Translations under genes and position numbers: made by a program
Assembly: GCA_024654025.1 (NCBI GenBank)
Contig: JANLIR010000003.1
Location: forward strand, 1,658 to 65,657
DNA: 64,000 bases
Reading direction: 5' to 3'
DNA from: Candidatus Wolfebacteria bacterium
GTDB taxonomy: Bacteria; Patescibacteriota; Minisyncoccia; UBA6257; UBA9933
Shown: in pieces, positions 3,694 to 31,804 of the stretch
Position numbering within the stretch: the first letter of the stretch is position 1
How the letters are laid out: the number at the start of each line of letters is the position of its first letter
Notes under the pieces: model-generated
Told to the model about the DNA's origin: nothing
What the model saw: only the letters and a program-made list of their open reading frames with translations
Databases searched by the model: none

Positions 3694-3721
3694 TTGACTT
3701 TTTTTATAATTGGACTATAAT
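3694..3721 (+). promoter_or_regulatory. Putative sigma70 promoter of nusA (TTGACT - 16 bp - TATAAT)
   Basis: ttgact at 3694-3699, tataat at 3716-3721. Confidence 0.45.
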
Positions 3722-3769: not shown

Positions 3770-5041
3770 ATGGATTTTAAATCATTAAATTGGGCGATAA
3801 AGCAGATTGCGGAAGAAAAAGGCATTGAACCGGATAAGGTTTTCGAAGCCGTCGAATCCGCGATCGCGGCCGCCTACAAAAAAGAATATTGCAAGAGAGG
3901 AGAAATTGTTCACGTGAAAATGGATCCAAAAACCGGAAGCCTTAATTTTTGGAAGACAAAAATAGTTGTTGATGAAACAACGGTGAGAATAGAAGAGGAG
4001 CCCTCCGTCGCTGAGGTTTTGGAGGGTAAAGAAGGGATGAAAAGGGGTGTGTCCTTTGAAATTTTAGCGAAGGAGGATGATGAAGAAAAAATCCCCAAAT
4101 ATAATCCCGACCGGCATATTTTAATAAAAGAAGCGAAAGAAATAAAACCCGATGCGGAATTAGACGAAGAATTAATTTTTCCTCTGGAAGAACACGAGGA
4201 TTTTGGAAGAATTGCGGCCCAAACCGCCAAACAAGTCATTATTCAGAAATTAAGAGAGGAAGAAAGAATGTCGGTGCAAAGAGAATTTCAAGGCAAGGAA
4301 GGCCAGATTGTAAGCGGTATTGTGCAGAGAATTGAAAGAGGAAATGTTTTTGTCGATCTCGGCCGGGCGGCCGGAATTATGTTTTTTAACGAAACAATTC
4401 CCGGAGAATATTATCGAGTAAGCGAAAGGTTAAAATTTTATCTTTTGGCGGTACAAAACGAAGAAGGAAAACGGCCCGGAATTATTTTGTCTCGCAGCCA
4501 CCCTCAATTTGTGGCAAGGCTTTTTGAACTTGAAGTGCCGGAAATTGCCGACGGTTTGGTAGAAATAAAAGGAATTGCCAGAGAAGCCGGAAGCAGAACA
4601 AAAATCGCCGTTGCCTCAAAAGAAGAAGGTATTGATCCGGTTGGCGCGTCTGTCGGTCAAAGAGGCACGAGAGTAATGGCTGTTACTAATGAGCTTGGAA
4701 ACGAAAAAATAGATATCATTGAGTGGCACGAAGAGATAGAAAAGTTTTTAGCCGCGTCTTTGTCTCCGGCAAAAGCGAGAGATGTGGAAATTATGCCCAG
4801 AAGAGAAGCTAAAATTTTTGTTCCTGAAGATCAGCTAAGTTTGGCTATAGGAAAAGACGGCCAAAATGTCCGTTTGGCGGCGATGCTTACGGGTTGGAAA
4901 ATAGATATTCGTTCTCAGTCGCGTCCGGATCAGGTTCAGGAAGGGGGAATTGCGGAAATCCAAAACGAAGGAGAAAAAGCAGAAGAAAAAACAGAAGAAA
5001 TTACCGAAGAAAAAGTTGAAAAAAACGAGGAAAATAAATAG
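3770..5041 (+). CDS. nusA: Transcription termination/antitermination factor NusA
   Basis: NusA N-terminal domain (AIKQIAEEKGIEPDKVFEAVESAIAAAYKK), S1 and tandem KH domains, acidic C-terminal tail. Confidence 0.85.
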   Translation: MDFKSLNWAIKQIAEEKGIEPDKVFEAVESAIAAAYKKEYCKRGEIVHVKMDPKTGSLNFWKTKIVVDETTVRIEEEPSVAEVLEGKEGMKRGVSFEILAKEDDEEKIPKYNPDRHILIKEAKEIKPDAELDEELIFPLEEHEDFGRIAAQTAKQVIIQKLREEERMSVQREFQGKEGQIVSGIVQRIERGNVFVDLGRAAGIMFFNETIPGEYYRVSERLKFYLLAVQNEEGKRPGIILSRSHPQFVARLFELEVPEIADGLVEIKGIAREAGSRTKIAVASKEEGIDPVGASVGQRGTRVMAVTNELGNEKIDIIEWHEEIEKFLAASLSPAKARDVEIMPRREAKIFVPEDQLSLAIGKDGQNVRLAAMLTGWKIDIRSQSRPDQVQEGGIAEIQNEGEKAEEKTEEITEEKVEKNEENK

Positions 5042-5176: not shown

Positions 5177-7147
5177 ATGTTTTATTTTACAGTTGTTCCA
5201 GCATTGATAGCGATTTTGTACAGTGTTTACATAATTTTTTGGCTTCGAAAGCAGCCGGATGGGGACGAGAAAATGAAAGAAATTTCCGGCGCGATTAAAA
5301 CGGGCGCGATGGCGTTTTTAAACAGAGAATATCGCACGGTCGGGATTGTTGCGTTAGTTATATCAGTCGTTTTATTTATAGCTTTCGGATGGCTATCGGT
5401 TTTGGGATTTTTAATCGGCGCGTCAGCGTCGGCCTTCGCCGGTTATATCGGGATGTTAATTTCGGTCAGTTCTAATTTAAAGACAACCGAGGCGGCGAAA
5501 AAAGGTTTGGCGCCGGCTTTGTACGTAGCTTTTAGAGCCGGTTCAGTTACCGGATTTTTAGTTGTAGCGCTTTCTCTTTTGGCGGTGAGTTTATTTTATT
5601 TCGCGACAAACGATTTGAAAGTTTTAGTTTCTTTGGGATTTGGCGCGAGTTTGATTTCCATATTCGCGCGGCTCGGCGGGGGAATTTTTACCAAAGCCGC
5701 TGACGTGGGAGCGGACTTGGTTGGGAAAGTTGAAGCCGGAATTCCCGAAGATGATCTGAGAAATCCGGCGGTTATCGCCGATTTAGTTGGAGATAACGCG
5801 GGTGATTGCGCGGGAATGGCAGCCGATCTTTTTGAAACTTACGCAGTTACTTTAATTGCTTCTATGCTTTTGGGCGCTTTGACTTTTGTCGGCAATGTCG
5901 GAATTTATTTCCCTTTGGCTTTGGCTGGAACAGCAATTATAGCTTCTGTTTTGGGAAGTTTGTTCGTGAAGCTTGGTAAAGACGGGAAAATTATGAAAGC
6001 GCTTTATAAAGGAGTTTTCGCTTCAACGATAATTTCGGCGATTTTGTTTTATCCGGTATCAATAATTTATTTTGGAAATAGTTACGGCGGTTATTATTTG
6101 AGCGCGTTGGTTGGATTGGTCGTGATGGTTTTGATGGTGGTGGTAACCGATTATTATACTTCGAAAAGTTTTAGGCCGGTTAAATCAATCGCCGACGCGT
6201 CCAAATCTGGACATGGAACAAATATTATTATGGGTTTGGCAATAAGTATGGAGTCTACATTTTTGCCGGTTGTGATAATCGGCGCGGGGATTTTAGCGAG
6301 TTTTTATTTGGCGGGAATTTACGGCGTGGCTACCGCGGTTTTGGCAATGCTTTCAGCTACGGGAATGATTGTGGCAATTGATTCTTTCGGGCCTATTACC
6401 GATAACGCCGGCGGAATCGCGGAGATGACGCACCAACCGGAAGAGGTCAGAAAAGTTACTGACGCTTTGGATGCGGTAGGAAACACAACTAAAGCGGTTA
6501 CTAAGGGATATGCTATTGCTTCGGCAGGGCTGGCGGCTTTGGTTCTTTTTGCCAGTTATTCGCAGGAACTATCCGCGCATCTGGGAGGAATTAATTTTGA
6601 TTTGAGCGACCCGTTAGTAATTATCGGATTAATTGCCGGAGCTTCTATCCCTTATTTATTCGGGTCGTTCGCGATGCGCTCAGTTGGAAAAGCCGCGGGA
6701 ACGGTTGTTGAAGAAGTTAGGAGGCAGTTTCGGGAAATCCCCGGAATCATGGAAGGCACTGGAAAGCCGGATTACCACAGGGCGGTTGATATTGTTACCA
6801 AAGCGGCTCTTAAAGAAATGATAGTGCCGGCGCTTCTTCCGATTGCCGCTGTTTTACTTGTTGGGTTTTTACTTGGCGCTAAAGCTTTGGGGGGGCTTTT
6901 AATCGGTTCGATTATTTCCGGACTTTTTGTGGCTATTTCAATGACGTCAGGAGGAGCGGCGTGGGACAATGCCAAGAAATATATTGAAGAAGGAAATTAC
7001 GGCGGAAAAGGTTCTGACGCCCATAAAGCAGCAGTTACCGGAGATACTGTCGGCGATCCTTATAAAGACACTGCCGGTCCGGCGATAAATCCTTTGATAA
7101 AAGTCATAAACATAGTCGCGCTTTTAATTGTAAAGTTTTTGAAGTAG
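5177..7147 (+). CDS. hppA: Membrane-bound proton-translocating pyrophosphatase (V-type H+-PPase)
   Basis: [20 protein letters not shown] and [19 protein letters not shown] motifs, 15-16 TM. Confidence 0.9.
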
Positions 7148-9667: not shown

Positions 9668-9726
9668 TTGAAAAGATTAAATTAAATAACTAGGCGTTGT
9701 GGTATACATTTACTACAATTGTTTCC

Positions 9727-9770
9727 GATCGGAAACAATTGTAGTAAATGTGAATAACCGACAGATATAA
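9727..9770. repeat. 44-bp perfect palindrome (19-6-19) centred on CGATCG
   Basis: catttactacaattgtttc cgatcg gaaacaattgtagtaaatg; checked by hand to be perfectly self-complementary. Confidence 0.8.
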
Positions 9771-9791
9771 TAACTGGTAAGTGAGGGGGGC

Positions 9792-9822
9792 TTGACAAGT
9801 ATACCTAGGGGGGAGGTATAAT
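9792..9822 (+). promoter_or_regulatory. Promoter (TTGACA - 19 bp - TATAAT) containing a CsoR-type operator TATACCT-AGGGGGG-AGGTATA
   Basis: 7-7-7 G-tract pseudo-palindrome at 9800-9820 matches the ATACC-N(G/C tract)-GGTAT operator class bound by CsoR repressors; lies immediately upstream of a csoR homologue. Confidence 0.7.
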
Positions 9823-9831
9823 GAATAATTA

Positions 9832-10098
9832 ATGAAAAAAAATAAAGAAATTATTACGGCGCTTAAAAAAGCGGACAGCCATTTAAAAAATATTATAGAA
9901 ATGGTTGAAAAAGAAGAGTATTGCGTAGATATTCTTCAGCAGAACTTGGCGGTTATCGGCCTTTTAAAATCAGCCAATAATAAGTTGATGGAGGGTCATT
10001 TGAATACTTGTTTTATTGAAGCAATAAAAGGATCAAATAAAAGGAAGGCGCAGAAAATGATTGACGAGCTTTTGCGGATAAATAAAAAAGTTCAATAA
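9832..10098 (+). CDS. csoR: CsoR/RcnR-family metal-sensing transcriptional repressor
   Basis: EEYCVDILQQNLAVIGLLKSANNKLMEGHLNTCF: the conserved Cys...His...Cys copper-ligand signature of the CsoR (DUF156) family. Confidence 0.8.
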   Translation: MKKNKEIITALKKADSHLKNIIEMVEKEEYCVDILQQNLAVIGLLKSANNKLMEGHLNTCFIEAIKGSNKRKAQKMIDELLRINKKVQ

Positions 10099-10111: not shown

Positions 10112-11014
10112 ATGGAAAATAAAAACAAATACTTATTGCCTGTTTCGTTTTTTATATCAGCGATTTTAATTTCCGCCGCATTTATTTACAGCGCCGGATT
10201 AAAAAGCAAAGAAGGCGGGAATTATCCGGAAAGTGTCGCGTTAGCCAATAAATCCGGAGAGTCTAATTTTAGAGAAATTACGGCTCCGCCTCAAGGAACG
10301 GAATTGCCGGTTAAATGGGGAGATCTTGGGAAAAAAATGGTTGAAGCCGGAGTTATTGACTCAGAACAGATAAAAGCGATCTATGACAAAAGAGGAGGAC
10401 TAAGCGAAGAAGATAGAAATATTATTTTTGGAGATAACAACGGAAATTTAGTGATTACTCCTAAAAATTCCGGTTTGATTTTGAACATGCTTTGGGCGTT
10501 GGGATTAGTTAATAAAAATGAAATTCTAGAAAAAGGGCCGATGCAAAATTACGGCGACGCGGGAAAATTTGCTTCTACCGGCGGATGGTCGCTTGCCAAG
10601 GGAAGCGCCATGAATTATTACAGTAGCCGCGAGTTTGTGAAATTAACGCCGGCTCAACAAGATTTAGTGGAAAGAGTTTCCAAAAATATTTATCGGCCGT
10701 GTTGCGATAATTCGACTTATTTTCCAGATTGCAATCATGGGATGGCGATGCTGGGATTTTTACAGCTAATGGCCAGTCAAGGAGTTGGTGAAAGCGATAT
10801 GTATAGAGCGGCGCTAGTGTTGAATTCTTACTGGTTTCCGGATAATTATGCGACAATAGCCAAATATTTTAAACAAAAAGGAGTTGAATGGGACAAAGTT
10901 GACGCTAAAAATGTTTTGAGTGAGGAATTTTCAAGTATCTCCGGATACGAAAATATTGTTTCAAAAATAACCGAGCCCAAAGAAAATAAAGGAGGCGGAG
11001 GTTGCGGAGTATAA
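10112..11014 (+). CDS. Exported/membrane-anchored hypothetical protein with a Cys/His/Met cluster (putative metal-binding)
   Basis: N-terminal TM/signal; RPCCDNSTYFPDCNHGMAM cluster; C-terminal GGGGCGV; sits between csoR and the Cu-efflux genes. Confidence 0.5.
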   Translation: MENKNKYLLPVSFFISAILISAAFIYSAGLKSKEGGNYPESVALANKSGESNFREITAPPQGTELPVKWGDLGKKMVEAGVIDSEQIKAIYDKRGGLSEEDRNIIFGDNNGNLVITPKNSGLILNMLWALGLVNKNEILEKGPMQNYGDAGKFASTGGWSLAKGSAMNYYSSREFVKLTPAQQDLVERVSKNIYRPCCDNSTYFPDCNHGMAMLGFLQLMASQGVGESDMYRAALVLNSYWFPDNYATIAKYFKQKGVEWDKVDAKNVLSEEFSSISGYENIVSKITEPKENKGGGGCGV

Positions 11015-11018
11015 AATT

Positions 11019-11870
11019 ATGAGTTTACTGATAAGCGCATCGTTAATAGCGGCTTTTTTCGCCGGGGTAGCGGCATTATTCGCGCCGTGTTGTGTGACGG
11101 TTCTTTTACCGTCTTATCTAGCCTCAATTTTTAGGCAAAAATATAAATTGTTTTTGATGACGTTTATATTCTTTTTGGGAATCGCAACTGTGTTTTTGCC
11201 TATAGGGTTGGGAGCTGCGGCGCTGGCTCAAATTTTCAGTCGGTATCACAACGTAATTTTCGGGGCCGGCGGAATATTTTTGATAATTATGGGATTAGTT
11301 CTTGTTTTGGGAAAAAAGTTTTCATTGCCGTTTAAAGTTCATCCGAAATTGGAAGCTAATAATGCGGGGTCGGTTTATGTGCTGGGAATTTTTTCCGGCA
11401 TTGCCACGACTTGTTGCGCTCCGGTTTTGGCGGGGGTTATTGCTTTAACGGTTATGCCCGGTTCGGTGTTTTTGGGAGTTATGTATACCCTAGCTTATGT
11501 TTTAGGAATGGTGATACCGCTTTTTATTTTGGCGTCTTTGGTTGATAAAACAAACGCAACTAACAGGTTTATGGTTTTAAAAAGACAGGTTGAATATACA
11601 TTTTTGGGAAGCAAAATTCGCGTCGCGGTTTCGGATATTATTTCCGGAGCGATATTTTTACTGATGGGATTAATAACAACTTATCTGGCTTTTACGAATA
11701 AGCTTTTTGTCCATTCGGCGTATCAAATGAACATAAATATTTATGTGGATAAAATAACCAAGGCAATCGGCGGTATTATCGGATTTGTGCCCCAGTATGT
11801 TTGGGCGTTGGTTGTGCTTTTGATAATAATTTTAATAACTAAAAAGTCGATTAATCAATTTAGAAAATAG
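11019..11870 (+). CDS. CcdA/DsbD-family transmembrane thiol-disulfide transporter-like protein
   Basis: polytopic membrane protein with membrane-embedded Cys pairs (FAPCCVTVLLP, ATTCCAPVLAG) as in DsbD/CcdA-type electron-transfer proteins. Confidence 0.55.
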   Translation: MSLLISASLIAAFFAGVAALFAPCCVTVLLPSYLASIFRQKYKLFLMTFIFFLGIATVFLPIGLGAAALAQIFSRYHNVIFGAGGIFLIIMGLVLVLGKKFSLPFKVHPKLEANNAGSVYVLGIFSGIATTCCAPVLAGVIALTVMPGSVFLGVMYTLAYVLGMVIPLFILASLVDKTNATNRFMVLKRQVEYTFLGSKIRVAVSDIISGAIFLLMGLITTYLAFTNKLFVHSAYQMNINIYVDKITKAIGGIIGFVPQYVWALVVLLIIILITKKSINQFRK

Positions 11871-12461
11871 ATGAAAAAATTTAGTATTTTTATAGCGGTT
11901 GCCGCTATTGCGCTACTTGGAGGAATGTATTATTTTGGCGGTCGAAATATTCAAAGCAATAATATTGGCGGACAAAAAACAAGCGCCGGATCGCTTGATG
12001 GTTTAGTCGGAAAACCAGTGTTAGGGTTTTCTTTGACCGATAGAGAAGGCAAAATTTATTCTTCCGAAAATTTGAAGGGCAAAAATTATGTCTTGTTTTT
12101 TAACGAGGGACTAATGTGTTATCCGGCTTGTTGGAGCCAAATGGCAGAGTTTGGAAAAGACGAGCGTTTTAATAAAGAAGATTTATTGGCATTTTCCGTT
12201 GTCGTTGATTCCAAGTCCGAATGGCAATCCGCGATTTCTAAAATGCCGGAGTTGGCCAGAACTAAAGTTTTGTTTGATAGCGGCGCAATTGTTTCCAGAA
12301 AATTCAATGTTTTAACGGTTAATTCCTCAATGCATTACGGCTCAATGCCGGGCCATACTTATATTGTGGTTGATAAAAGCGGCGTTGTCAGATACGTATA
12401 TGACGATCCGACAATGGCAATAAACAACGATATGTTGTTTATTAAAATTAATAGCTTTTAA
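11871..12461 (+). CDS. Sco/SenC-like thioredoxin-fold copper-binding protein (membrane-anchored, extracytoplasmic)
   Basis: N-terminal TM, CxxxC (CYPAC) followed about 90 aa later by a His in [14 protein letters not shown], the Sco1/SenC Cu-ligand arrangement; start abuts the upstream stop. Confidence 0.6.
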
Positions 12462-12493: not shown

Positions 12494-14785
12494 ATGAAGA
12501 AAACTTTTCAAATTATAGGAATGGACTGCGCGTCGTGCGCGGCGGCAATAGAATATTCAGTTAAAAAAATAAATGGCGTTAAAGACGCCAATGTTAATTA
12601 TGCCTCCGAAAAGCTGTTTGTTGACTTCGAAAAAGAAATAAACGACCAAGAAATAAAAGAAGCGGTTAAAAGAACCGGTTACCAAATTATTTCCGGAGGC
12701 GACCACGCGTCAATGGATCATAGTCAAATGGATCATTCTAAAATGGATCACGCCGAACATGGCGAAGAACACGATCACGCTAAGATGTTGAGCGAGGCAG
12801 AGACAAAGACGCTTAAAAATAAATTTTGGTTTGGGACGATTGCGTCTTTGATAACTTTGGTTTTGAGTTTTGGTAAAAGTTATATCGGTTTTATACCAAA
12901 AGATTTTAATTTAGTGTTGCTTGTTATTCTAGCGACGCCGGTTGAGTTTTGGGTGGGCAAGCAATTTTGGAGAGGAGCGTACTTTGAATTTAAAAATTTC
13001 AGGCCGGGCATGGATAGTTTGGTTGTGCTTGGCACCGGAGCAGCTTATTTTTTCAGCGTAGTTGTGTCGGTTTTTAATATTATTCCGGCGTTTAATAATT
13101 TTTTTATAGCTCAATTTGAGCCGTATTTTGACGTGGCGGTAGTAGTTGTCACTTTTATAATCTTGGGGAAATTTTTGGAAGCCAAGGCAAAAGGTTCGGC
13201 TTCGGAAGCGATAAAAAAATTATTAAAACTTCAAGCTAAAACCGCCCATCATATTATGCCTGACGGCTCAATACATGATATTGATATTGATAACGTGAAA
13301 GTCGGCGATGTTTTATTAGTAAAGCAAGGCGAAAAAATTCCGGTTGACGGCGTTATTTTTGAGGGAGCGACGTCAATTGACGAGTCAATGGTGACCGGAG
13401 AATCGCTTCCGGTTGATAAAAAAGAGGGCGATAAAGTTATCGGCGCCACCATTAACAAAAGCGAGTTGTTTAAAATGAAAGCGACTAAGATAGGTAAAGA
13501 CACTTTTTTGTCGCAGATTGTTAAAATTGTTGAAGAGGCGCAGGCGTCAAAAGCGCCGATTCAAAAATTGGCCGATAAAATAACCGGAGTTTTTGTGCCG
13601 ATAGTTATAGCGGTCGCCACATTGACGTTTATTGTATGGATGATTTTGGGACCGGAGCCGCGTTTTGTTTACGCTTTGATAAACGCCGTAGCGGTTTTGG
13701 TTGTTGCGTGTCCTTGCGCTTTGGGGCTTGCCACTCCGATTGCGGTAATTACCGGCACGGGTAAAGGCGCGGAAAACGGAATCATAATAAGAAACGCCAG
13801 TTCTTTGGAAACAGCGGGGAGAATTAATACCGTGGTTTTGGATAAAACCGGAACCATTACTAAAGGCGAGCCGGCTATAACGGATATAATAACCAACGAC
13901 CCACAAATAACGAAAAACGACATATTGCAGATTGGGGCGAGTTTGGATCAAAACTCGTCGCATCCTATCGGCAAGGCAGTTGTTTTAAAAGCCAAAAACG
14001 AAAATATTAAACTAAGTTTGGTTTCGGAATTTTCAACGATTCTCGGAAAAGGAGTAAAAGGAAAAATTGAAAACAAAGAATATATTTTCGGAAGCAAAAA
14101 AATAATAGGCGATTATCAAATTGATTTCCCGACGCAATTAATGCACTCGCTTGAAGAATTGGAAGAGCAAGGGAAAACGGTTTTGATTTTGTCCGACACA
14201 AAAAAGATTTTAGGCATAGTGGCGGTTGCCGATACTTTGAAAGAGACTGCCAAAGAAACTGTTGATAAGTTAAAAAAATTAGAGGTGGATGTTTGGATGA
14301 TAACTGGAGATAACGAAAGAACCGCGCACGCTATTGCCGAGAAGGTCGGCATTAAAAATGTTTTGGCTTCGGTTTTGCCGGAGCAAAAATCTCAAAAAGT
14401 AAAAGAATTGCAGGATAAAGGATTTGTTGTGGCAATGGTTGGTGATGGTATTAACGACGCGCCGGCTTTGACGCAAGCCGATATTGGAATCGCTATTGGA
14501 ACCGGGACGGACATTGCTATAGAATCAGCGGGCATAACTTTGGCTTCCGGCGATCCGGTTGGAGTGTATAAGGCGATTCTGCTTTCCAGAAAAACTTTGA
14601 AAAACATCAAGCAGAATCTTTTTTGGGCCTATGCTTATAATATAGCTTTGATTCCTGTGGCAGCCGGGGTTTTGTATCCGGCATTCGGATTGCTTTTGAA
14701 CCCGATTTTGGCCGGCGCGGCAATGGCTTTTAGTTCGCTTTCGGTTGTGCTAAACTCGTTGAGGTTAAAGAGAATCAAGTTTTAA
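12494..14785 (+). CDS. copA: Copper-translocating P1B-type ATPase CopA
   Basis: N-terminal HMA domain [12 protein letters not shown], His-rich MDH repeats, CPC ([12 protein letters not shown]), DKTGTIT phosphorylation site, GDGINDAP. Confidence 0.9.
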
Positions 14786-14825: not shown

Positions 14826-15104
14826 ATGTACTACAACAATATGATGAATCCTTATGGTTGGGGAGGCGGATACGGGATGATGCAGTTTGGATTGCTGGGA
14901 TGGATTTTTATGGTTTTGTGGTGGGTTATAGTCATTGCCGTGATTGTCTGGGTGATCAGAGCGATTTTTGGACGAGGAAGAAGGAATTATTGGCAAGAGT
15001 GGCATGGAGAAAAAGGACCTTTGGAAATTTTAAAAGAAAGATACGCGAAAGGAGAGATTGATAAGAGTGAGTATGAAGAGAAAAAGAAAGACCTTGAAAA
15101 ATAA
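14826..15104 (+). CDS. SHOCT-domain small membrane protein
   Basis: TM helix then LEILKERYAKGEIDKSEYEEKKKDL (SHOCT-like C-terminal motif). Confidence 0.55.
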   Translation: MYYNNMMNPYGWGGGYGMMQFGLLGWIFMVLWWVIVIAVIVWVIRAIFGRGRRNYWQEWHGEKGPLEILKERYAKGEIDKSEYEEKKKDLEK

Positions 15105-15129
15105 TACTTCGGCCAGCTTAGTATAAACT

Positions 15130-15160
15130 AAAACAGTCCCGCCACGGCGGGACTGTTTTA
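15130..15160. terminator. Bidirectional rho-independent terminator
   Basis: aaaacagtcccgcc-acg-ggcgggactgtttt, perfect 13-bp stem flanked by an A-run and a T-run. Confidence 0.8.
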
Positions 15161-15199
15161 GTTATTGGTGTATTTATTGTACCAAGCGCGAACCTATTT

Positions 15200-15394
15200 T
15201 CAAAACAAGTGATGTTCCGCCAGAGGCGGACAGGCGCACGCACGGAGCGTGTGGTGGCTTAAGATTGAGTCGAGATTGCAACTCTTGTGTTTTTTACACC
15301 ACGCCTCGTATTTTTCCGCCCATTCCTTGTCTCGGTATTTTAATCCGCACTCAGAGCATTGGTAGGACTTTTGGTTTTGATTGGCGTTATTCAT
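15200..15394 (-). CDS. Small Cys-rich (zinc-ribbon-like) protein
   Basis: CSECG...CKKHKSC; start abuts the upstream stop codon (translational coupling). Confidence 0.4.
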   Translation of the reverse strand: MNNANQNQKSYQCSECGLKYRDKEWAEKYEAWCKKHKSCNLDSILSHHTLRACACPPLAEHHLF

Positions 15395-15865
15395 TTATTC
15401 AACCACAATCGTACCACCTTCACCGGGGTTAAGATGATTGTGATATTTCCAGTTGCCTGCCTTAGTGAAAGTAAAAGAATAATTTTCGCCCCTTGAGTAT
15501 CCGCGTTTTGCGTCAAAACCAGAATAATCGGTATGAATCGGATGAGGGTTTGAAGCAACCCACATCGGCCCTGACTTTTCGTTTTTGAAGATAACTGTTG
15601 TTCCGATCTTCACGCGAAGAATGCTCGGAGAAAATCCTGAATCGCTGTATGCTACGACATTCTTTTCTGTGGCTGGCGCTTGACTTACGGATGGCTGCGA
15701 AACTGGCTGCTCGGTTGACGGCACCGAAGTTTGCTGTTGCGGAACTGTTTGCTGATTTGATGTTTGAGGAACCGACGGTGTCGATTGGGATGTCCCCTTA
15801 AAAAGAAAATATCCGCCAACGAGAACAACTGCGACGATAACAATTGCGATGATAGATTTGTTCAT
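15395..15865 (-). CDS. Secreted cupredoxin-fold-like protein (His-rich, no Cys; putative metal binding)
   Basis: signal/TM then a Ser/Thr/Pro/Gln linker then a beta-rich domain KIGTTVIFKNEKSGPMWVASNPHPIHTD...WKYHNH; fold assignment is tentative. Confidence 0.4.
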   Translation of the reverse strand: MNKSIIAIVIVAVVLVGGYFLFKGTSQSTPSVPQTSNQQTVPQQQTSVPSTEQPVSQPSVSQAPATEKNVVAYSDSGFSPSILRVKIGTTVIFKNEKSGPMWVASNPHPIHTDYSGFDAKRGYSRGENYSFTFTKAGNWKYHNHLNPGEGGTIVVE

Positions 15866-15927
15866 ATAAGTTTAGTTATTGATTAAAGTTAATAAATTAT
15901 TTTTAAAGGCTTTCGGCTTTGGCCCTT

Positions 15928-16116
15928 TTATTTTTCTTTCCATTTCCACCATACAAGTCCAGCCGCAACTAAGAAAGCAACTCCGATTATCCCATGTATG
16001 TTGTGTAGATATAATCCAAATTGTTCATGATTAAGTGGTAATGGAGCTGTGTGGTCAATAAGCCAATAAAGTCCGATAATAACTAAAACGATAACCGTAA
16101 TAATTGTTTTGTTCAT
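15928..16116 (-). CDS. Small two-TM membrane protein
   Basis: 62 aa, two hydrophobic helices, Trp-rich C-terminus. Confidence 0.4.
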   Translation of the reverse strand: MNKTIITVIVLVIIGLYWLIDHTAPLPLNHEQFGLYLHNIHGIIGVAFLVAAGLVWWKWKEK

Positions 16117-16139
16117 ATTGGTTAAGATTACTAATTATT

Positions 16140-16760
16140 TTATCCGCGAGCGTTTTTGAGGGCGCGGGTCCACCACAAAAGTTGAGTGATCATGGCCTTT
16201 GCCTGATCTGCAAGCGAGGCGAAAAGTTCTTTTGCGTCCATTTTGCCAAAGAGCACTTGGAAATACTGCTCGCCGGGAATGTGCACCGCCACTCGGATCG
16301 GCGCCATTTGAAGCTCAACGGCATTGAGGCGTAACTGTTCAACTGCGCGCGCTCCGCCGACACCGCCATAACTTACGAAGGCAACCGGCTTATTGTTCCA
16401 TTCCTGATAGACCCAATCGAGAGCATTTTTCAGCACGCCGGACGTGCCGTGGTTGTATTCCGGGGTAATCATAATAAAAGCGTCTCCCTCTGCAATTTTT
16501 TTGGTAAAGCGCGTGACTGCCTCGTTCTTAAACGGCTCTTGCTTGAATGACGGACTCACGGGTTCGTTAAAAAACGGCATCTCGTAATCCCTCAAGTCAA
16601 GCACCTCGACCGAAATCCCGTTTTGTTTCTTGATTTCATCGGCAATCCACACAGCGGCTTTATCGCTAAATCGGCCTTCGCGAGTGCTACCTGCTATTAC
16701 TTTGATGTTGAGTGATGTAGTGTTTTTCATAGGTTGTAAAATTAATTTAATAAATCTCAC
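16140..16760 (-). CDS. NAD(P)H-dependent FMN reductase (flavodoxin-like fold, ArsH/ChrR family)
   Basis: IKVIAGSTREGRFS...PEYNHGTSGVLKNALDW motifs of PF03358; GTG start overlaps the arsR-family stop (GTGA); alternative ATG at 16730. Confidence 0.7.
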   Translation of the reverse strand: MRFIKLILQPMKNTTSLNIKVIAGSTREGRFSDKAAVWIADEIKKQNGISVEVLDLRDYEMPFFNEPVSPSFKQEPFKNEAVTRFTKKIAEGDAFIMITPEYNHGTSGVLKNALDWVYQEWNNKPVAFVSYGGVGGARAVEQLRLNAVELQMAPIRVAVHIPGEQYFQVLFGKMDAKELFASLADQAKAMITQLLWWTRALKNARG

Positions 16761-17059
16761 GCGCTACTTTTTCGCTTTTTCTTTGGTCTAATCTCCTCTG
16801 CAAGGCGTTTGAGGAGGTGGATGGTGTGCTCGACATTGAGCGTATACCGAACTTCCTGCCCTTGCCGTTCATCTTGCACCAAGCCAGTTTCCCTAAGAAC
16901 GCGCAGGTGCTGAGATACGAGGGGTTGAGACAGTTTTGTTTTCCTCGCAAGCTCGCTTACCGTCTTATGGCCGGAGAAAAGTGCCTCCACGATGCGATAG
17001 CGCGGAACACTCCCGATACCCTTACCAAACTTTTCCATTTCCTTGCACAAATCTGTCAT
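16757..17059 (-). CDS. ArsR/SmtB-family HTH transcriptional regulator
   Basis: RYRIVEALFSGHKTVSELARKTKLSQPLVSQHLRVLRETGLV winged-helix signature. Confidence 0.75.
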   Translation of the reverse strand: MTDLCKEMEKFGKGIGSVPRYRIVEALFSGHKTVSELARKTKLSQPLVSQHLRVLRETGLVQDERQGQEVRYTLNVEHTIHLLKRLAEEIRPKKKRKSSA

Positions 17060-30070: not shown

Positions 30071-31804
30071 ATGGACAACAAAATTCTCATACAAGAATTG
30101 GTAAAAAATAATCTTTTAGAATCAAACGCCGGCACTAAGATTTTACAGGAGGCTTCTTTAATCAGGCGGCCAGTGGAGGAATTGATTTACGAGAGAAGGA
30201 TGGTGGGTGAAAAAGAATTGGCTCGTGTTAAAAGCAAGGCGTTAGGCATTCCTTATAAAGATATCGAGTCAAAAGATATAGGCGAGGATTTGCTAAAAAT
30301 TTTTCCCGAAGAAACAGCAAGGAATTATAAAACCATTCCCATAAGTTTAAAAGATAATCTTTTAATTGTTGGGATGATTAATCCAGATGACCAGACCGCC
30401 CAGGAAGCGGTCAAATTTGTAGCTAAACAAAAAAGGGTTAATTTGGGAGTTTATTTGATTTCACAATCGGTTTGGGAAGATGTGCTTAAAAAATATTCTC
30501 CTTATCGGAGTTTGATTGACGAAGCGACTAAAGCGTTGTCCAGCGCTTATAAAGACACTAGCCAATTCGTTCAATTGGAAGAAAAAATGAAAGGATCGGA
30601 TGAGGCGCCGATAATTAAAATAGTATCGTCTACTTTGAAAGAGGCGATTTGGGAAAAAGCGTCCGATATTCATATTGAGCCTCAAAGAAACAGATTAAGA
30701 ATCCGTTTTAGAATTAACGGCGAACTTCAGGAATCAGCTTCGCTTCCCATAGAACTTCATCAAGCGATAGTTTCAAGAGTTAAAATTTTATCTAATCTTA
30801 AAATTGATGAAAATAGAATTCCGCAAGATGGCAGATTTCGAACAATTCTTTCCGGGCGAGACATTGATTTTCGAGTAGCAACTTTTCCGACTCCGGTTGG
30901 CGAAAAGGTTGTTATCAGGGTGCTTGACCCTCTGGTTGGTTTAAGAGGCTTGGAAGAATTGGGTATTTCCGGAAGGAATCTTGAAATTGTCAAAGAAGGA
31001 ATTAAAAAACCTTACGGAATGATACTTTTGACCGGCCCTACCGGATCGGGAAAAACCACCACTTTGTATGCGATGATGCAGTTATTAAACAATGAATCGG
31101 TTAATATTGTCAGTTTGGAAGATCCTGTTGAATATTTTATAGACGGAATGAATCAATCGCAGGTAAAGCCGGAAATTGGCTATGATTTTGCTTCGGGGCT
31201 CCGGCAAATTTTAAGGCAAGACCCGGACGTAATAATGGTCGGTGAAATAAGAGACGACGAAACAGCCGGTTTGGCGGTTCACGCGGCTTTGACCGGACAT
31301 ATAGTTTTATCAACTTTGCACACCAATAATTCCATCGGCGTTATCCCGCGGCTTATCGATTTGAAAGTTAAAGCGTTTCTTTTGCCGTCTTCTTTGAATT
31401 TGATGGTGGCGCAAAGACTGCTTCCCAAGCTTTGCGATAACTGCAAAAAGCCGGAAAAAGCGCCTGAAGAAATAAGCAAGATTATTGAAAAGGAAATAGG
31501 TAAAATTTCCAAAGAAATTTTAGAGAAAAGTAAAGTGGAAATTTCTAAACCTTATAAGATTTACAAAGCGCCGGGTTGCGAGGTTTGCAAGGGTAAGGGC
31601 ATATCCGGCAGAGTGGCGATTTTTGAAATTTTAACAATGACGCCGGAATTGGAAGAAGTTATAAACAGCTCTCCGACTGAAACCAAAATATTGGATGAAT
31701 TTAGAAGACAGGGCAATGTTAATTTGCGGCAAGACGGAATTTTAAAAGCCCTTCAAGGACTCATGTCAATTGAAGAAGTGTTGAGGGAAACAGAGGAGGT
31801 GTGA
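30071..31804 (+). CDS. pilB: Type IV pilus assembly ATPase PilB (GspE family)
   Basis: Walker A LLTGPTGSGKTTTL, Asp box, Walker B, His box, tetracysteine motif CDNC...CEVC. Confidence 0.9.
   Translation: MDNKILIQELVKNNLLESNAGTKILQEASLIRRPVEELIYERRMVGEKELARVKSKALGIPYKDIESKDIGEDLLKIFPEETARNYKTIPISLKDNLLIVGMINPDDQTAQEAVKFVAKQKRVNLGVYLISQSVWEDVLKKYSPYRSLIDEATKALSSAYKDTSQFVQLEEKMKGSDEAPIIKIVSSTLKEAIWEKASDIHIEPQRNRLRIRFRINGELQESASLPIELHQAIVSRVKILSNLKIDENRIPQDGRFRTILSGRDIDFRVATFPTPVGEKVVIRVLDPLVGLRGLEELGISGRNLEIVKEGIKKPYGMILLTGPTGSGKTTTLYAMMQLLNNESVNIVSLEDPVEYFIDGMNQSQVKPEIGYDFASGLRQILRQDPDVIMVGEIRDDETAGLAVHAALTGHIVLSTLHTNNSIGVIPRLIDLKVKAFLLPSSLNLMVAQRLLPKLCDNCKKPEKAPEEISKIIEKEIGKISKEILEKSKVEISKPYKIYKAPGCEVCKGKGISGRVAIFEILTMTPELEEVINSSPTETKILDEFRRQGNVNLRQDGILKALQGLMSIEEVLRETEEV

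What the first reader, a model, noticed from the sequence alone, without database searches (positions are those of the whole stretch)
9792..9822. Textbook CsoR operator embedded in a 19-bp-spacer promoter, with flanking G6/G7 tracts
TATACCT-AGGGGGG-AGGTATA (9800-9820) is a 7-7-7 G-tract pseudo-palindrome of the class bound by copper-sensing CsoR repressors. It sits between a TTGACA -35 element and a TATAAT -10 element whose spacer is therefore 19 bp.

A second G6 run lies just upstream of the -35 element. The downstream gene is a clear csoR.

The long spacer is reminiscent of MerR-type promoters. The G7 homopolymer inside the operator/spacer could also vary in length by slippage and retune both promoter strength and repressor binding.
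Basis: partly seen in the sequence, partly recalled or inferred. Interest (0 to 1): 0.55.

Follow-up and report, generated by a model that had tools for sequence, protein, structure and literature searches.

The report
Copper-repressor operator in csoR–copA promoter
This is an ordinary binding site for a copper-sensing CsoR repressor, sitting on the promoter of a copper-export operon in an uncultivated Patescibacteria-type bacterium; the unusually long 19-bp promoter spacer is real, but it is a lineage-specific variant and not evidence of a special mechanism.

Summary

- **Layout.** TTGACA (9792-9797), a 19-nt spacer, and TATAAT (9817-9822) enclose TATACCT-AGGGGGG-AGGTATA (9800-9820). The start codon of an 88-aa CsoR lies 9 nt after the -10.
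- **Sensor and operon.** The CsoR has an invariant x-C-H-C Cu(I) motif. The operon is csoR, orf300, a CcdA-like gene, a redoxin and a Cu-type CopA ATPase.
- **Conservation.** The 19-bp core box (ATACCT-N7-AGGTAT, i.e. TAC-N11-GTA) is present in every orthologous promoter in which the region upstream of csoR was captured (19 loci, 13 alleles).
- **Spacer.** The 19-bp spacer is not conserved. Most close relatives have a 16-bp spacer with the central tract inverted (C-rich on the top strand). More distant relatives place the same box just downstream of the -10.
- **Slippage.** No tract-length variation was seen. Seven assemblies of the same lineage all carry G6, and the 7-nt centre length is constant in all alleles.
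- **MerR idea.** No MerR-type regulator was detected in the window.

Best explanation: apo-CsoR blocks RNA polymerase sterically and Cu(I) releases it. This is a new member of a known kind, of low-to-moderate interest.

The parts
9785..9790 (+). Upstream G6 run. It is not a conserved feature and probably has no function.
   Evidence: Present. It reads GGGGGC (G5C) in 5 of 6 contigs that encode the identical CsoR. It is absent from relatives L161, L164, L001, L082, L181 and L183.
9792..9797 (+). -35 hexamer TTGACA
   Evidence: TTGACA is conserved in every orthologous csoR promoter in which the -35 region was captured. It is part of the only 12/12 consensus pair in the window.
9798..9816 (+). 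19-nt spacer: 3 extra nt (AGT) followed by most of the operator
   Evidence: The gap between the -35 and the box is 3 nt here and in L161, and 0 nt in eight other close lineages, which therefore have a 16-nt spacer.
9801..9819 (.). Conserved 19-bp CsoR box ATACCT-AGGGGGG-AGGTAT. TAC is at 9802-9804, G6 at 9808-9813, GTA at 9816-9818.
   Evidence: Unique in the window. TACCT-N7-AGGT is kept in 19 loci and 13 alleles. It matches the class description in PMC3902906 and resembles the S. aureus copA site ATACCtataGGGGGTAC (PMC5947656).
9817..9822 (+). -10 hexamer TATAAT, fused to the right arm of the box (AGGTATAAT)
   Evidence: The same fusion is seen in all close relatives.
9828..9832 (+). Inferred transcription start. 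The mRNA would be leaderless or have a leader of at most 4 nt, with no Shine-Dalgarno sequence.
   Evidence: Inferred from the 9 nt between the -10 and the ATG. In L001 and L183 the gap is 6 nt, which places +1 on the A of the ATG.
9832..10098 (+). csoR, 88 aa, with the x-C-H-C Cu(I)-sensor motif (Y30, C31, H56, C60)
   Evidence: Pfam PF02583. It aligns to M. tuberculosis CsoR C36/H61/C65. The four residues are invariant in 121 homologues.
10112..11014 (+). orf300: a membrane-anchored, Cys-rich protein of unknown family, conserved as the second gene of the operon in the close relatives whose downstream genes were seen, except L178/L179
   Evidence: No Pfam, NCBIfam or PDB match. It has 5962 homologues. 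Synteny is shown; L178/L179 have an 81-aa ORF in this position instead.
11019..11870 (+). CcdA/DsbD-type thiol-disulfide transporter
   Evidence: Pfam PF02683.
11871..12461 (+). AhpC/TSA or Redoxin-family thioredoxin-like protein
   Evidence: Pfam PF00578 and PF08534.
12494..14785 (+). CopA, a P1B-1 Cu(I)-exporting ATPase with an N-terminal HMA domain (CxxC) and a His/Met-rich linker
   Evidence: Pfam. TIGR01511 scores 614.8 bits against a cutoff of 397. The motifs CPC, YN(x)4P and M(x)2SS are visible in the translation.

Best explanation
The 19-bp box at 9801-9819 is the operator of the CsoR encoded immediately downstream. At low copper, the apo-CsoR tetramer (or tetramers) binds the TAC/GTA dyad arms and the A-philic G-tract. 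The box fills the -35/-10 spacer and overlaps the -10, so bound CsoR blocks sigma-70 RNA polymerase.

Cu(I) binding at C31/H56/C60 lowers the repressor's DNA affinity. That derepresses one autoregulated, essentially leaderless operon: csoR, orf300, ccdA, redoxin and copA.

The 19-bp spacer is one of two promoter alleles found among close relatives: 16 bp with the C-tract on the top strand, or 19 bp with the G-tract on the top strand. It most likely only lowers the intrinsic strength of the promoter and does not imply a different regulatory mechanism.

**Shown:** the anatomy, family membership, sensor residues, conservation of the box, and the variability of its position and orientation.

**Inferred:** binding, the copper response, the transcription start site, and the effect of the spacer on promoter strength.
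For: - **Sequence anatomy:**
- **Beyond chance:** the box is unique in the window, and the 12/12 promoter is unique at any spacer.
- **Regulator:** CsoR family. It aligns to solved Cu-CsoRs with C/H/C matched. Y30, C31, H56 and C60 are invariant in 121 homologues, and there is no N-terminal His or Cys. That gives x-C-H-C, the Cu(I) signature (PMC8643695, PMC11672702).
- **Operon context:** a Cu-type CopA lies in the same tightly packed operon.
- **Box conservation:** TACCT-N7-AGGT is kept in 19 loci and 13 alleles, always on or next to the core promoter.
- **Distant homologues:** Chloroflexi homologues carry ATAC-N9-GTAT G/C-tract boxes upstream in 71 of 77 loci.
- **Published description of the class:** TAC/GTA dyads flanking G-tracts, with A-like DNA (PMC3902906). 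The S. aureus copA promoter fragment containing ATACCtataGGGGGTAC binds CsoR in EMSA (PMC5947656).
Against: - There is no experimental binding or expression data for this organism.
- The TAC-to-GTA spacing is 11, not the 9 of characterised Cu-CsoR sites. The tract is single (type-1-like), an architecture characterised for Ni/Co-RcnR (PMC3902906).
- The first Arg of the RLXR DNA-binding motif is Ala here (ALKK).
- The residue that aligns with the second-shell Glu of M. tuberculosis CsoR is Lys75. An invariant Glu79 lies one helical turn later.
- A 19-bp spacer would be expected to give a weak promoter.
Confidence: 0.85

Rival explanations
1. MerR-like logic. The 19-bp spacer makes the promoter inactive until a bound regulator (Cu-CsoR or an unseen MerR/CueR) untwists or shortens the spacer, so the site would act as an activation site and not as a simple repression site.
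For: - The spacer is 19 bp with perfect hexamers, and the dyad lies in the spacer.
- A second lineage, L161, also has a 19-bp spacer.
- CsoR binding increases A-like DNA character in G-tract operators (PMC3902906).
Against: - Eight close lineages have the same box with a 16-bp spacer, and seven more distant ones place it downstream of the -10.
- The adjacent regulator is a CsoR. The literature read here describes CsoR-family regulators only as repressors released by their inducer (PMC11672702).
- No MerR homologue was found in the window by tblastn.
Confidence: 0.03
2. Contingency locus. The G-tract changes length by slipped-strand mispairing, which would phase-vary both promoter spacing and repressor affinity.
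For: A homopolymeric G6 lies inside the spacer and operator. Tract length differs between lineages, at 5 or 6.
Against: - G6 is short for slippage.
- Seven independent assemblies of this lineage, drawn from several samples, all have G6.
- In 13 alleles the centre is always 7 nt and the box always 19 bp. The 5-versus-6 differences are substitutions.
Confidence: 0.03
3. The regulator senses something other than Cu(I), such as persulfide (CstR-like) or Ni/Co, and the box is the operator of a thiol-stress operon that happens to include copA.
For: - CstR operators look similar (ATATACCCTTATGGGGTATAT, PMC8643695).
- The operon carries CcdA and a redoxin.
- The single-tract box resembles the RcnR type-1 site (PMC3902906).
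Against: - His56 is invariant at the Y position, and there is no N-terminal W ligand.
- The main cargo of the operon is a Cu-type CopA.
- Relatives pair the same CsoR with cupredoxin, HMA and CopA genes.
Confidence: 0.07

Closest known systems
Staphylococcus aureus CsoR site in the copA promoter (ATACCtataGGGGGTAC; PMC5947656)
   Same: It has an ATACC left arm, a single asymmetric G5-6 tract and a GTA-type right arm. It lies in the promoter of a copA operon repressed by an x-C-H-C CsoR.
   Different: The TAC-to-GTA spacing here is 11, not 9. The arms here are longer and perfect (ATACCT/AGGTAT). Here csoR itself is the first gene of the operon.
Streptomyces lividans type-2 CsoR consensus ATATACCCCTNAGGGGTATAT (PMC3902906)
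   Same: It has AT-rich TAC/GTA dyads flanking G/C tracts, is about two helical turns long, and is autoregulatory at the csoR promoter.
   Different: The S. lividans site has two symmetric tracts (C4 and G4) and X9 spacing. The site here has one uninterrupted G6, asymmetric, with X11 spacing.
E. coli RcnR type-1 site TACT-G6-N-AGTA (as described in PMC3902906, citing Iwig and Chivers 2009)
   Same: The architecture is the same: short inverted arms around a 7-nt centre made of G6 plus one base.
   Different: RcnR is an H-C-H-H Ni/Co sensor with tandem sites. Here there is a single site, the arms are TACCT/AGGTA, and the sensor is x-C-H-C next to CopA.
Bacillus subtilis CsoR-copZA operator (Smaldone and Helmann 2007; sequence recalled from memory, paper not held, so not verified here)
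   Same: As recalled, it is a TACC...GGGGG...GGTA pseudo-palindrome overlapping the copZA promoter, and repression is relieved by Cu(I).
   Different: As recalled, it is about 3 bp longer. In B. subtilis csoR is not the first gene of the cop operon.
MerR/CueR-type promoters (19-20-bp spacer with a dyad operator in the spacer)
   Same: The spacer is 19 bp and contains a dyad.
   Different: The regulator family is different. The long spacer is not conserved among orthologues. The box overlaps the -10.

Membership tests
CsoR/RcnR-family operator | AT-rich inverted repeats (TAC/GTA dyad) flanking one or more G/C tracts | tested here: met
   ATACCT-AGGGGGG-AGGTAT. The definition is taken from PMC3902906. 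The spacing is X11 rather than the common X9, and the single tract makes it type-1-like.
CsoR/RcnR-family operator | Located on the core promoter of the regulated efflux operon, next to the regulator gene | tested here: met
   The box lies in the spacer and overlaps the -10, 12 nt upstream of the csoR ATG.
CsoR/RcnR-family operator | Conserved in orthologous promoters (phylogenetic footprint) | tested here: met
   19 loci and 13 alleles keep TACCT-N7-AGGT. Distant homologues carry ATAC-N9-GTAT in 71 of 77 loci.
CsoR/RcnR-family operator | Bound by the cognate tetramer and released by the inducer | not testable with these tools
   Needs EMSA or fluorescence anisotropy with and without Cu(I).
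Cu(I)-sensing CsoR (x-C-H-C) | Pfam PF02583 fold | tested here: met
   65.9 bits against a cutoff of 22.8. The best PDB hits are the CsoRs 2hh7, 4m1p and 4adz.
Cu(I)-sensing CsoR (x-C-H-C) | Cys, His and Cys at the X, Y and Z positions, with no N-terminal W ligand | tested here: met
   C31, H56 and C60 align to M. tuberculosis C36, H61 and C65 and are invariant in 121 homologues. The N-terminus, MKKNKEII, has no His or Cys.
Cu(I)-sensing CsoR (x-C-H-C) | Second-shell Tyr and Glu | tested here: inconclusive
   Tyr30 is invariant. The position that aligns to M. tuberculosis E81 is Lys75 (E in 59 and K in 50 of the homologues). An invariant Glu79 lies 4 residues later.
Cu(I)-sensing CsoR (x-C-H-C) | A neighbouring P1B-1 CopA | tested here: met
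   TIGR01511 scores 614.8 bits. The CPC, YN(x)4P and M(x)2SS motifs are visible.
MerR-type promoter | 19-20-bp spacer | tested here: met
   19 nt.
MerR-type promoter | A MerR-family regulator encoded at the locus | tested here: not met
   The adjacent regulator is a CsoR. tblastn with CueR and MerR finds only chance-level hits in the 64 kb.
MerR-type promoter | The long spacer is conserved among orthologues | tested here: not met
   The spacer is 16 bp in eight close lineages. The box lies outside the spacer in seven more distant lineages.
Phase-variable homopolymer (contingency locus) | Tract-length polymorphism among near-identical genomes | tested here: not met
   Seven assemblies all have G6. 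The centre is always 7 nt. Read-level data were not available.

The most novel reading that the evidence does not exclude
In the two lineages with a 19-bp spacer (the window and L161), CsoR might act as more than a steric repressor. The A-philic G-tract, with or without bound CsoR, could shorten or untwist an over-long spacer, giving MerR-like control of promoter geometry by a non-MerR protein.

A milder version of this reading: the 16-bp/C-top and 19-bp/G-top forms are two discrete promoter alleles, exchanged among strains to set the basal level of the copper operon.
Probability: 0.05. Interest if true: 0.75.

Novelty: new member of a known kind. Interest (0 to 1): 0.22.

Why it matters
It gives a clean regulatory annotation, supported by comparison across relatives, for a copper-efflux operon in Patescibacteria (CPR). 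Almost no promoters or operators have been defined in that group.

It shows that an x-C-H-C CsoR can use a single-tract box with TAC-N11-GTA spacing. It also shows that the box tolerates inversion of its asymmetric centre and relocation relative to the -10. Both points fit recognition by a symmetric tetramer through DNA shape.

It does not reveal a new mechanism.

Tried and rejected
- **Collection scans.** The genome contigs and metagenome-contig scans with the CsoR protein were dominated by Chloroflexi homologues that match one peptide pattern. Only about 12 loci were close relatives. The rest served as a distant outgroup.
- **Other copies of the box.** A regulon search in the window with up to 3 mismatches and with relaxed TAC-N9/10/11-GTA patterns found no second box.
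- **MerR homologue.** tblastn found nothing.
- **Other 19-bp-spacer promoters.** The one 11/12 match, on the minus strand at 31769, is antisense inside a gene and is judged to be chance.
- **Origin of replication.** A DnaA-box-like TGTGAATAA lies next to the upstream hairpin, so I checked for an origin. GC skew is uniformly positive and there is no origin in the window.
- **Rfam.** Neither the promoter and hairpin region nor the long leaders of relatives gave any family match, only sub-threshold hairpin matches.
- **Papers not held.** The primary papers for the B. subtilis and S. aureus operators (PMC3019219, PMC3075698, PMC3246313) were not available. The recalled B. subtilis sequence could not be found in the library.

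Full report
**1. Observation**

One search shows, on the + strand:
- G6 at 9785-9790;
- TTGACA at 9792-9797;
- a 19-nt spacer at 9798-9816;
- TATACCT (9800-9806), AGGGGGG (9807-9813) and AGGTATA (9814-9820);
- TATAAT at 9817-9822;
- an ATG at 9832.

The 'G7 homopolymer' is not: the run inside the box is G6 (9808-9813). The only G7 in the window is at 6889-6895.

The box is unique in the 64 kb at up to 3 mismatches, against 0.01 expected. No other TAC-N9/10/11-GTA site with a G/C run of 4 or more exists in the window. The -35/-10 pair is the only 12/12 match in the window at any spacer from 13 to 22. The tool's own promoter scan misses it because it allows only spacers of 16-18.

**2. Genes**

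The ORF at 9832-10098 (88 aa) is a CsoR/RcnR-family repressor: PF02583, 65.9 bits. Its best solved relatives are Cu-CsoRs (2hh7, 4m1p, 4adz). C31, H56 and C60 align with M. tuberculosis C36, H61 and C65.

In an alignment with 120 homologues, Y30, C31, H56 and C60 are invariant, and the N-terminus has no His or Cys. That gives the x-C-H-C pattern, which PMC8643695 and PMC11672702 describe as the Cu(I)-sensor signature. The same sources give H-C-H-H for RcnR, P-C-H-x for FrmR, and no His at the Y position for CstR.

Two departures are worth noting:
- The RLXR DNA-binding motif reads ALKK here.
- The residue that aligns with the second-shell Glu (M. tuberculosis E81) is Lys75, although an invariant Glu79 lies one helical turn later.

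The downstream genes are tightly packed, with gaps of 0-40 nt:
- orf300, which has no family match;
- a DsbD_TM/CcdA protein;
- an AhpC/TSA-Redoxin protein;
- a 763-aa P1B ATPase that passes TIGR01511 (copper-translocating) at 614.8 bits against a cutoff of 397. It shows GMDCASC, CPC, YN(x)4P and M(x)2SS in its sequence.

Close relatives keep the same flanking genes, H+-PPase, ClpP, GAPDH and TrmD upstream of csoR and orf300 after it, with a SHOCT gene after copA. L178/L179 have a different gene in place of orf300.

**3. Comparative test of the operator**

I collected the csoR upstream region from 19 loci, giving 13 distinct promoter alleles (table). All of them keep TACCT-N7-AGGT. The box is always 19 bp and the spacing always TAC-N11-GTA.

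Close relatives (CsoR at least 80% identical):
- The right arm is fused to the -10 (AGGTATAAT or AGGTATATT).
- Eight lineages (L181, L082, L164, L183, L001, L175, L178, L180) have TTGACA directly abutting the box. Their spacer is 16 bp and the central tract is inverted (ACCCCCT, CCCCCCT or ACCCCCC on the top strand).
- L082's box is the exact reverse complement of the window's.
- Only the window lineage and L161 (ACGGGGG centre) have the G-tract on the top strand plus 3 extra nt, giving a 19-bp spacer.
- These two are not sister lineages by csoR nucleotide identity or orf300 protein identity. Their regions upstream of the -35 do look related to each other by eye.

More distant relatives (65-72% identical: L184, L002, L185, L003, L004, L005, L085):
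- They carry the same G-top box. Five of the seven have the window's AGGGGGG centre.
- The box is placed directly downstream of the -10, with at most a few nucleotides between them, in a promoter whose -10 I read at 16-18 nt from TTGACA.

Chloroflexi homologues (28-32% identical) carry ATAC-N9-GTAT boxes with split C/G tracts in 71 of 77 upstream regions.

The operator is therefore strongly conserved. Its position on the promoter, its orientation and the spacer length are not.

**4. Slippage**

Six contigs from several samples encode the identical CsoR. Together with the window that makes seven assemblies, and all have G6 in the box. The only difference among them is a G-to-C substitution in the upstream run (G6 versus G5C).

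Between lineages the tract is 5 or 6 long, but the 7-nt centre never changes length. These changes are substitutions or an inversion, not indels. Arm spacing is evidently under constraint, which argues against phase variation. Read-level data were not available.

**5. The MerR idea**

The spacer length and a dyad within the spacer are the only features shared with MerR-type promoters.
- The neighbouring regulator is a CsoR.
- Orthologues work with 16-bp spacers, or with the box outside the spacer.

The few other strong promoter-like sites point to a normal optimum of 16-18 bp. One is TTGACT-16-TATAAT at 3694, in the intergenic region before the gene at 3770. The outgroup csoR promoters are the others. 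In that light the 19-bp allele looks like a weaker variant and not a designed feature.

**6. Mechanism**

The best-supported reading is classical. Apo-CsoR occupies a box that covers the spacer and the -10, or the -10 and +1 in the outgroup, and excludes RNA polymerase. Cu(I) binding at C31/H56/C60 releases it, which derepresses an autoregulated operon.

With 9 nt between the -10 and the ATG here, and 6 nt in L001 and L183, the mRNA is leaderless or nearly so. This is inferred from spacing alone.

That the asymmetric centre works in either orientation fits the published model (PMC3902906). In that model a symmetric tetramer reads the TAC/GTA dyads and the A-like shape of the G-tract.

**7. Comparison with known sites**

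PMC3902906 defines two site types:
- Type 1 has one G/C tract of 3-8 bases between AT-rich inverted repeats. An example is E. coli RcnR, TACT-G6-N-AGTA.
- Type 2 has two shorter tracts. An example is S. lividans, ATATACCCCTNAGGGGTATAT, with TAC-X9-GTA spacing.

The paper states that known CsoR sites are type 2. The present box has one uninterrupted G6 and a 7-nt centre, like the RcnR site, yet it serves an x-C-H-C sensor.

The closest characterised Cu site I could cite is S. aureus copA, ATACCtataGGGGGTAC (PMC5947656). 'Textbook' is therefore fair at the level of the class. In detail, this is a variant with X11 spacing and a single tract.

**8. Verdict**

This is a real, conserved and essentially ordinary CsoR operator and promoter in a Patescibacteria-type genome: a new member of a known kind.

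The mildly interesting residue is the dimorphism between 16-bp/C-top and 19-bp/G-top promoters among strains whose CsoR proteins are 80-99% identical.

Noticed in passing
window 9706-9751 (plus 9748-9756); also L082:2736-2773, L181:1234-1271, L178:1120-1157, L183:128-165, L161:216-255: A 46-nt perfect palindrome lies between trmD and the csoR promoter (RNA fold -33.8 kcal/mol, z -7). It belongs to a hairpin family with a conserved base (TTTACT/AGTAAA), a conserved apex (CGATCG) and a conserved 3' tail (TGTGGATAA, which resembles a DnaA box). The middle of the stem differs between relatives and co-varies.

A copy sits at a different intergenic site in L161, upstream of nusA. L183 also has a separate canonical terminator, so the hairpin is not simply the trmD terminator. 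There is no T-run after it and no Rfam match. Several short-read contigs break exactly at its centre.
   Followed up: partly
window 10112-11014 (orf300): The second gene of the copper operon belongs to a very large family (5962 homologues, mostly Patescibacteria, all labelled 'hypothetical'). It has no Pfam, NCBIfam or PDB sequence match and no Foldseek PDB match, although the AlphaFold model is decent (pLDDT 79, pTM 0.74).

It has an N-terminal membrane anchor, an invariant R-P-C-C-x-N-x3-F-P-D-C-N-H-G motif (C197, C198, C207, H209) and a C-terminal GGGGCG tail with an invariant Cys298. It is a candidate extracytoplasmic copper- or thiol-handling protein.
   Followed up: partly
L181:1330-1500, L082:2830-3000, L178:1300-1500 (absent from the window): In relatives whose CsoR is 88-99% identical, a leader of about 170-200 nt separates the operator and promoter from the csoR ATG. 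It ends in a 12-14-bp inverted repeat (CCCGTTAGAAAT ... ATTTCTAACGGG) that abuts the start codon.

The window, L001 and L183 lack this leader and are leaderless. No Rfam family matches, and three sequences are too few to show covariation. It could be a MITE-like insertion or a structured 5' UTR.
   Followed up: partly
window 11019-12461: A CcdA/DsbD-type transporter and a thioredoxin-like redoxin are co-transcribed with copA. From general knowledge, and not tested here, this recalls the Scs (suppressor of copper sensitivity) thiol-disulfide systems.
   Followed up: no
window 14826-17059: Several genes lie downstream of copA:
- a small membrane protein of the SHOCT type (14826-15104), identified by synteny with relatives;
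- on the minus strand, a 156-aa secreted protein that looks cupredoxin-like (15395-15865);
- a putative FMN reductase (16140-16760);
- an ArsR-like HTH protein (16757-17059).

The last three were judged by eye from the translations and were not run against any family library. None of these genes has a CsoR box upstream.
   Followed up: no
whole window: GC skew is strongly and uniformly positive (about +0.15 to +0.23), and nearly all long ORFs are on the + strand. The window therefore lies on one replichore with no origin or terminus inside it.
   Followed up: yes
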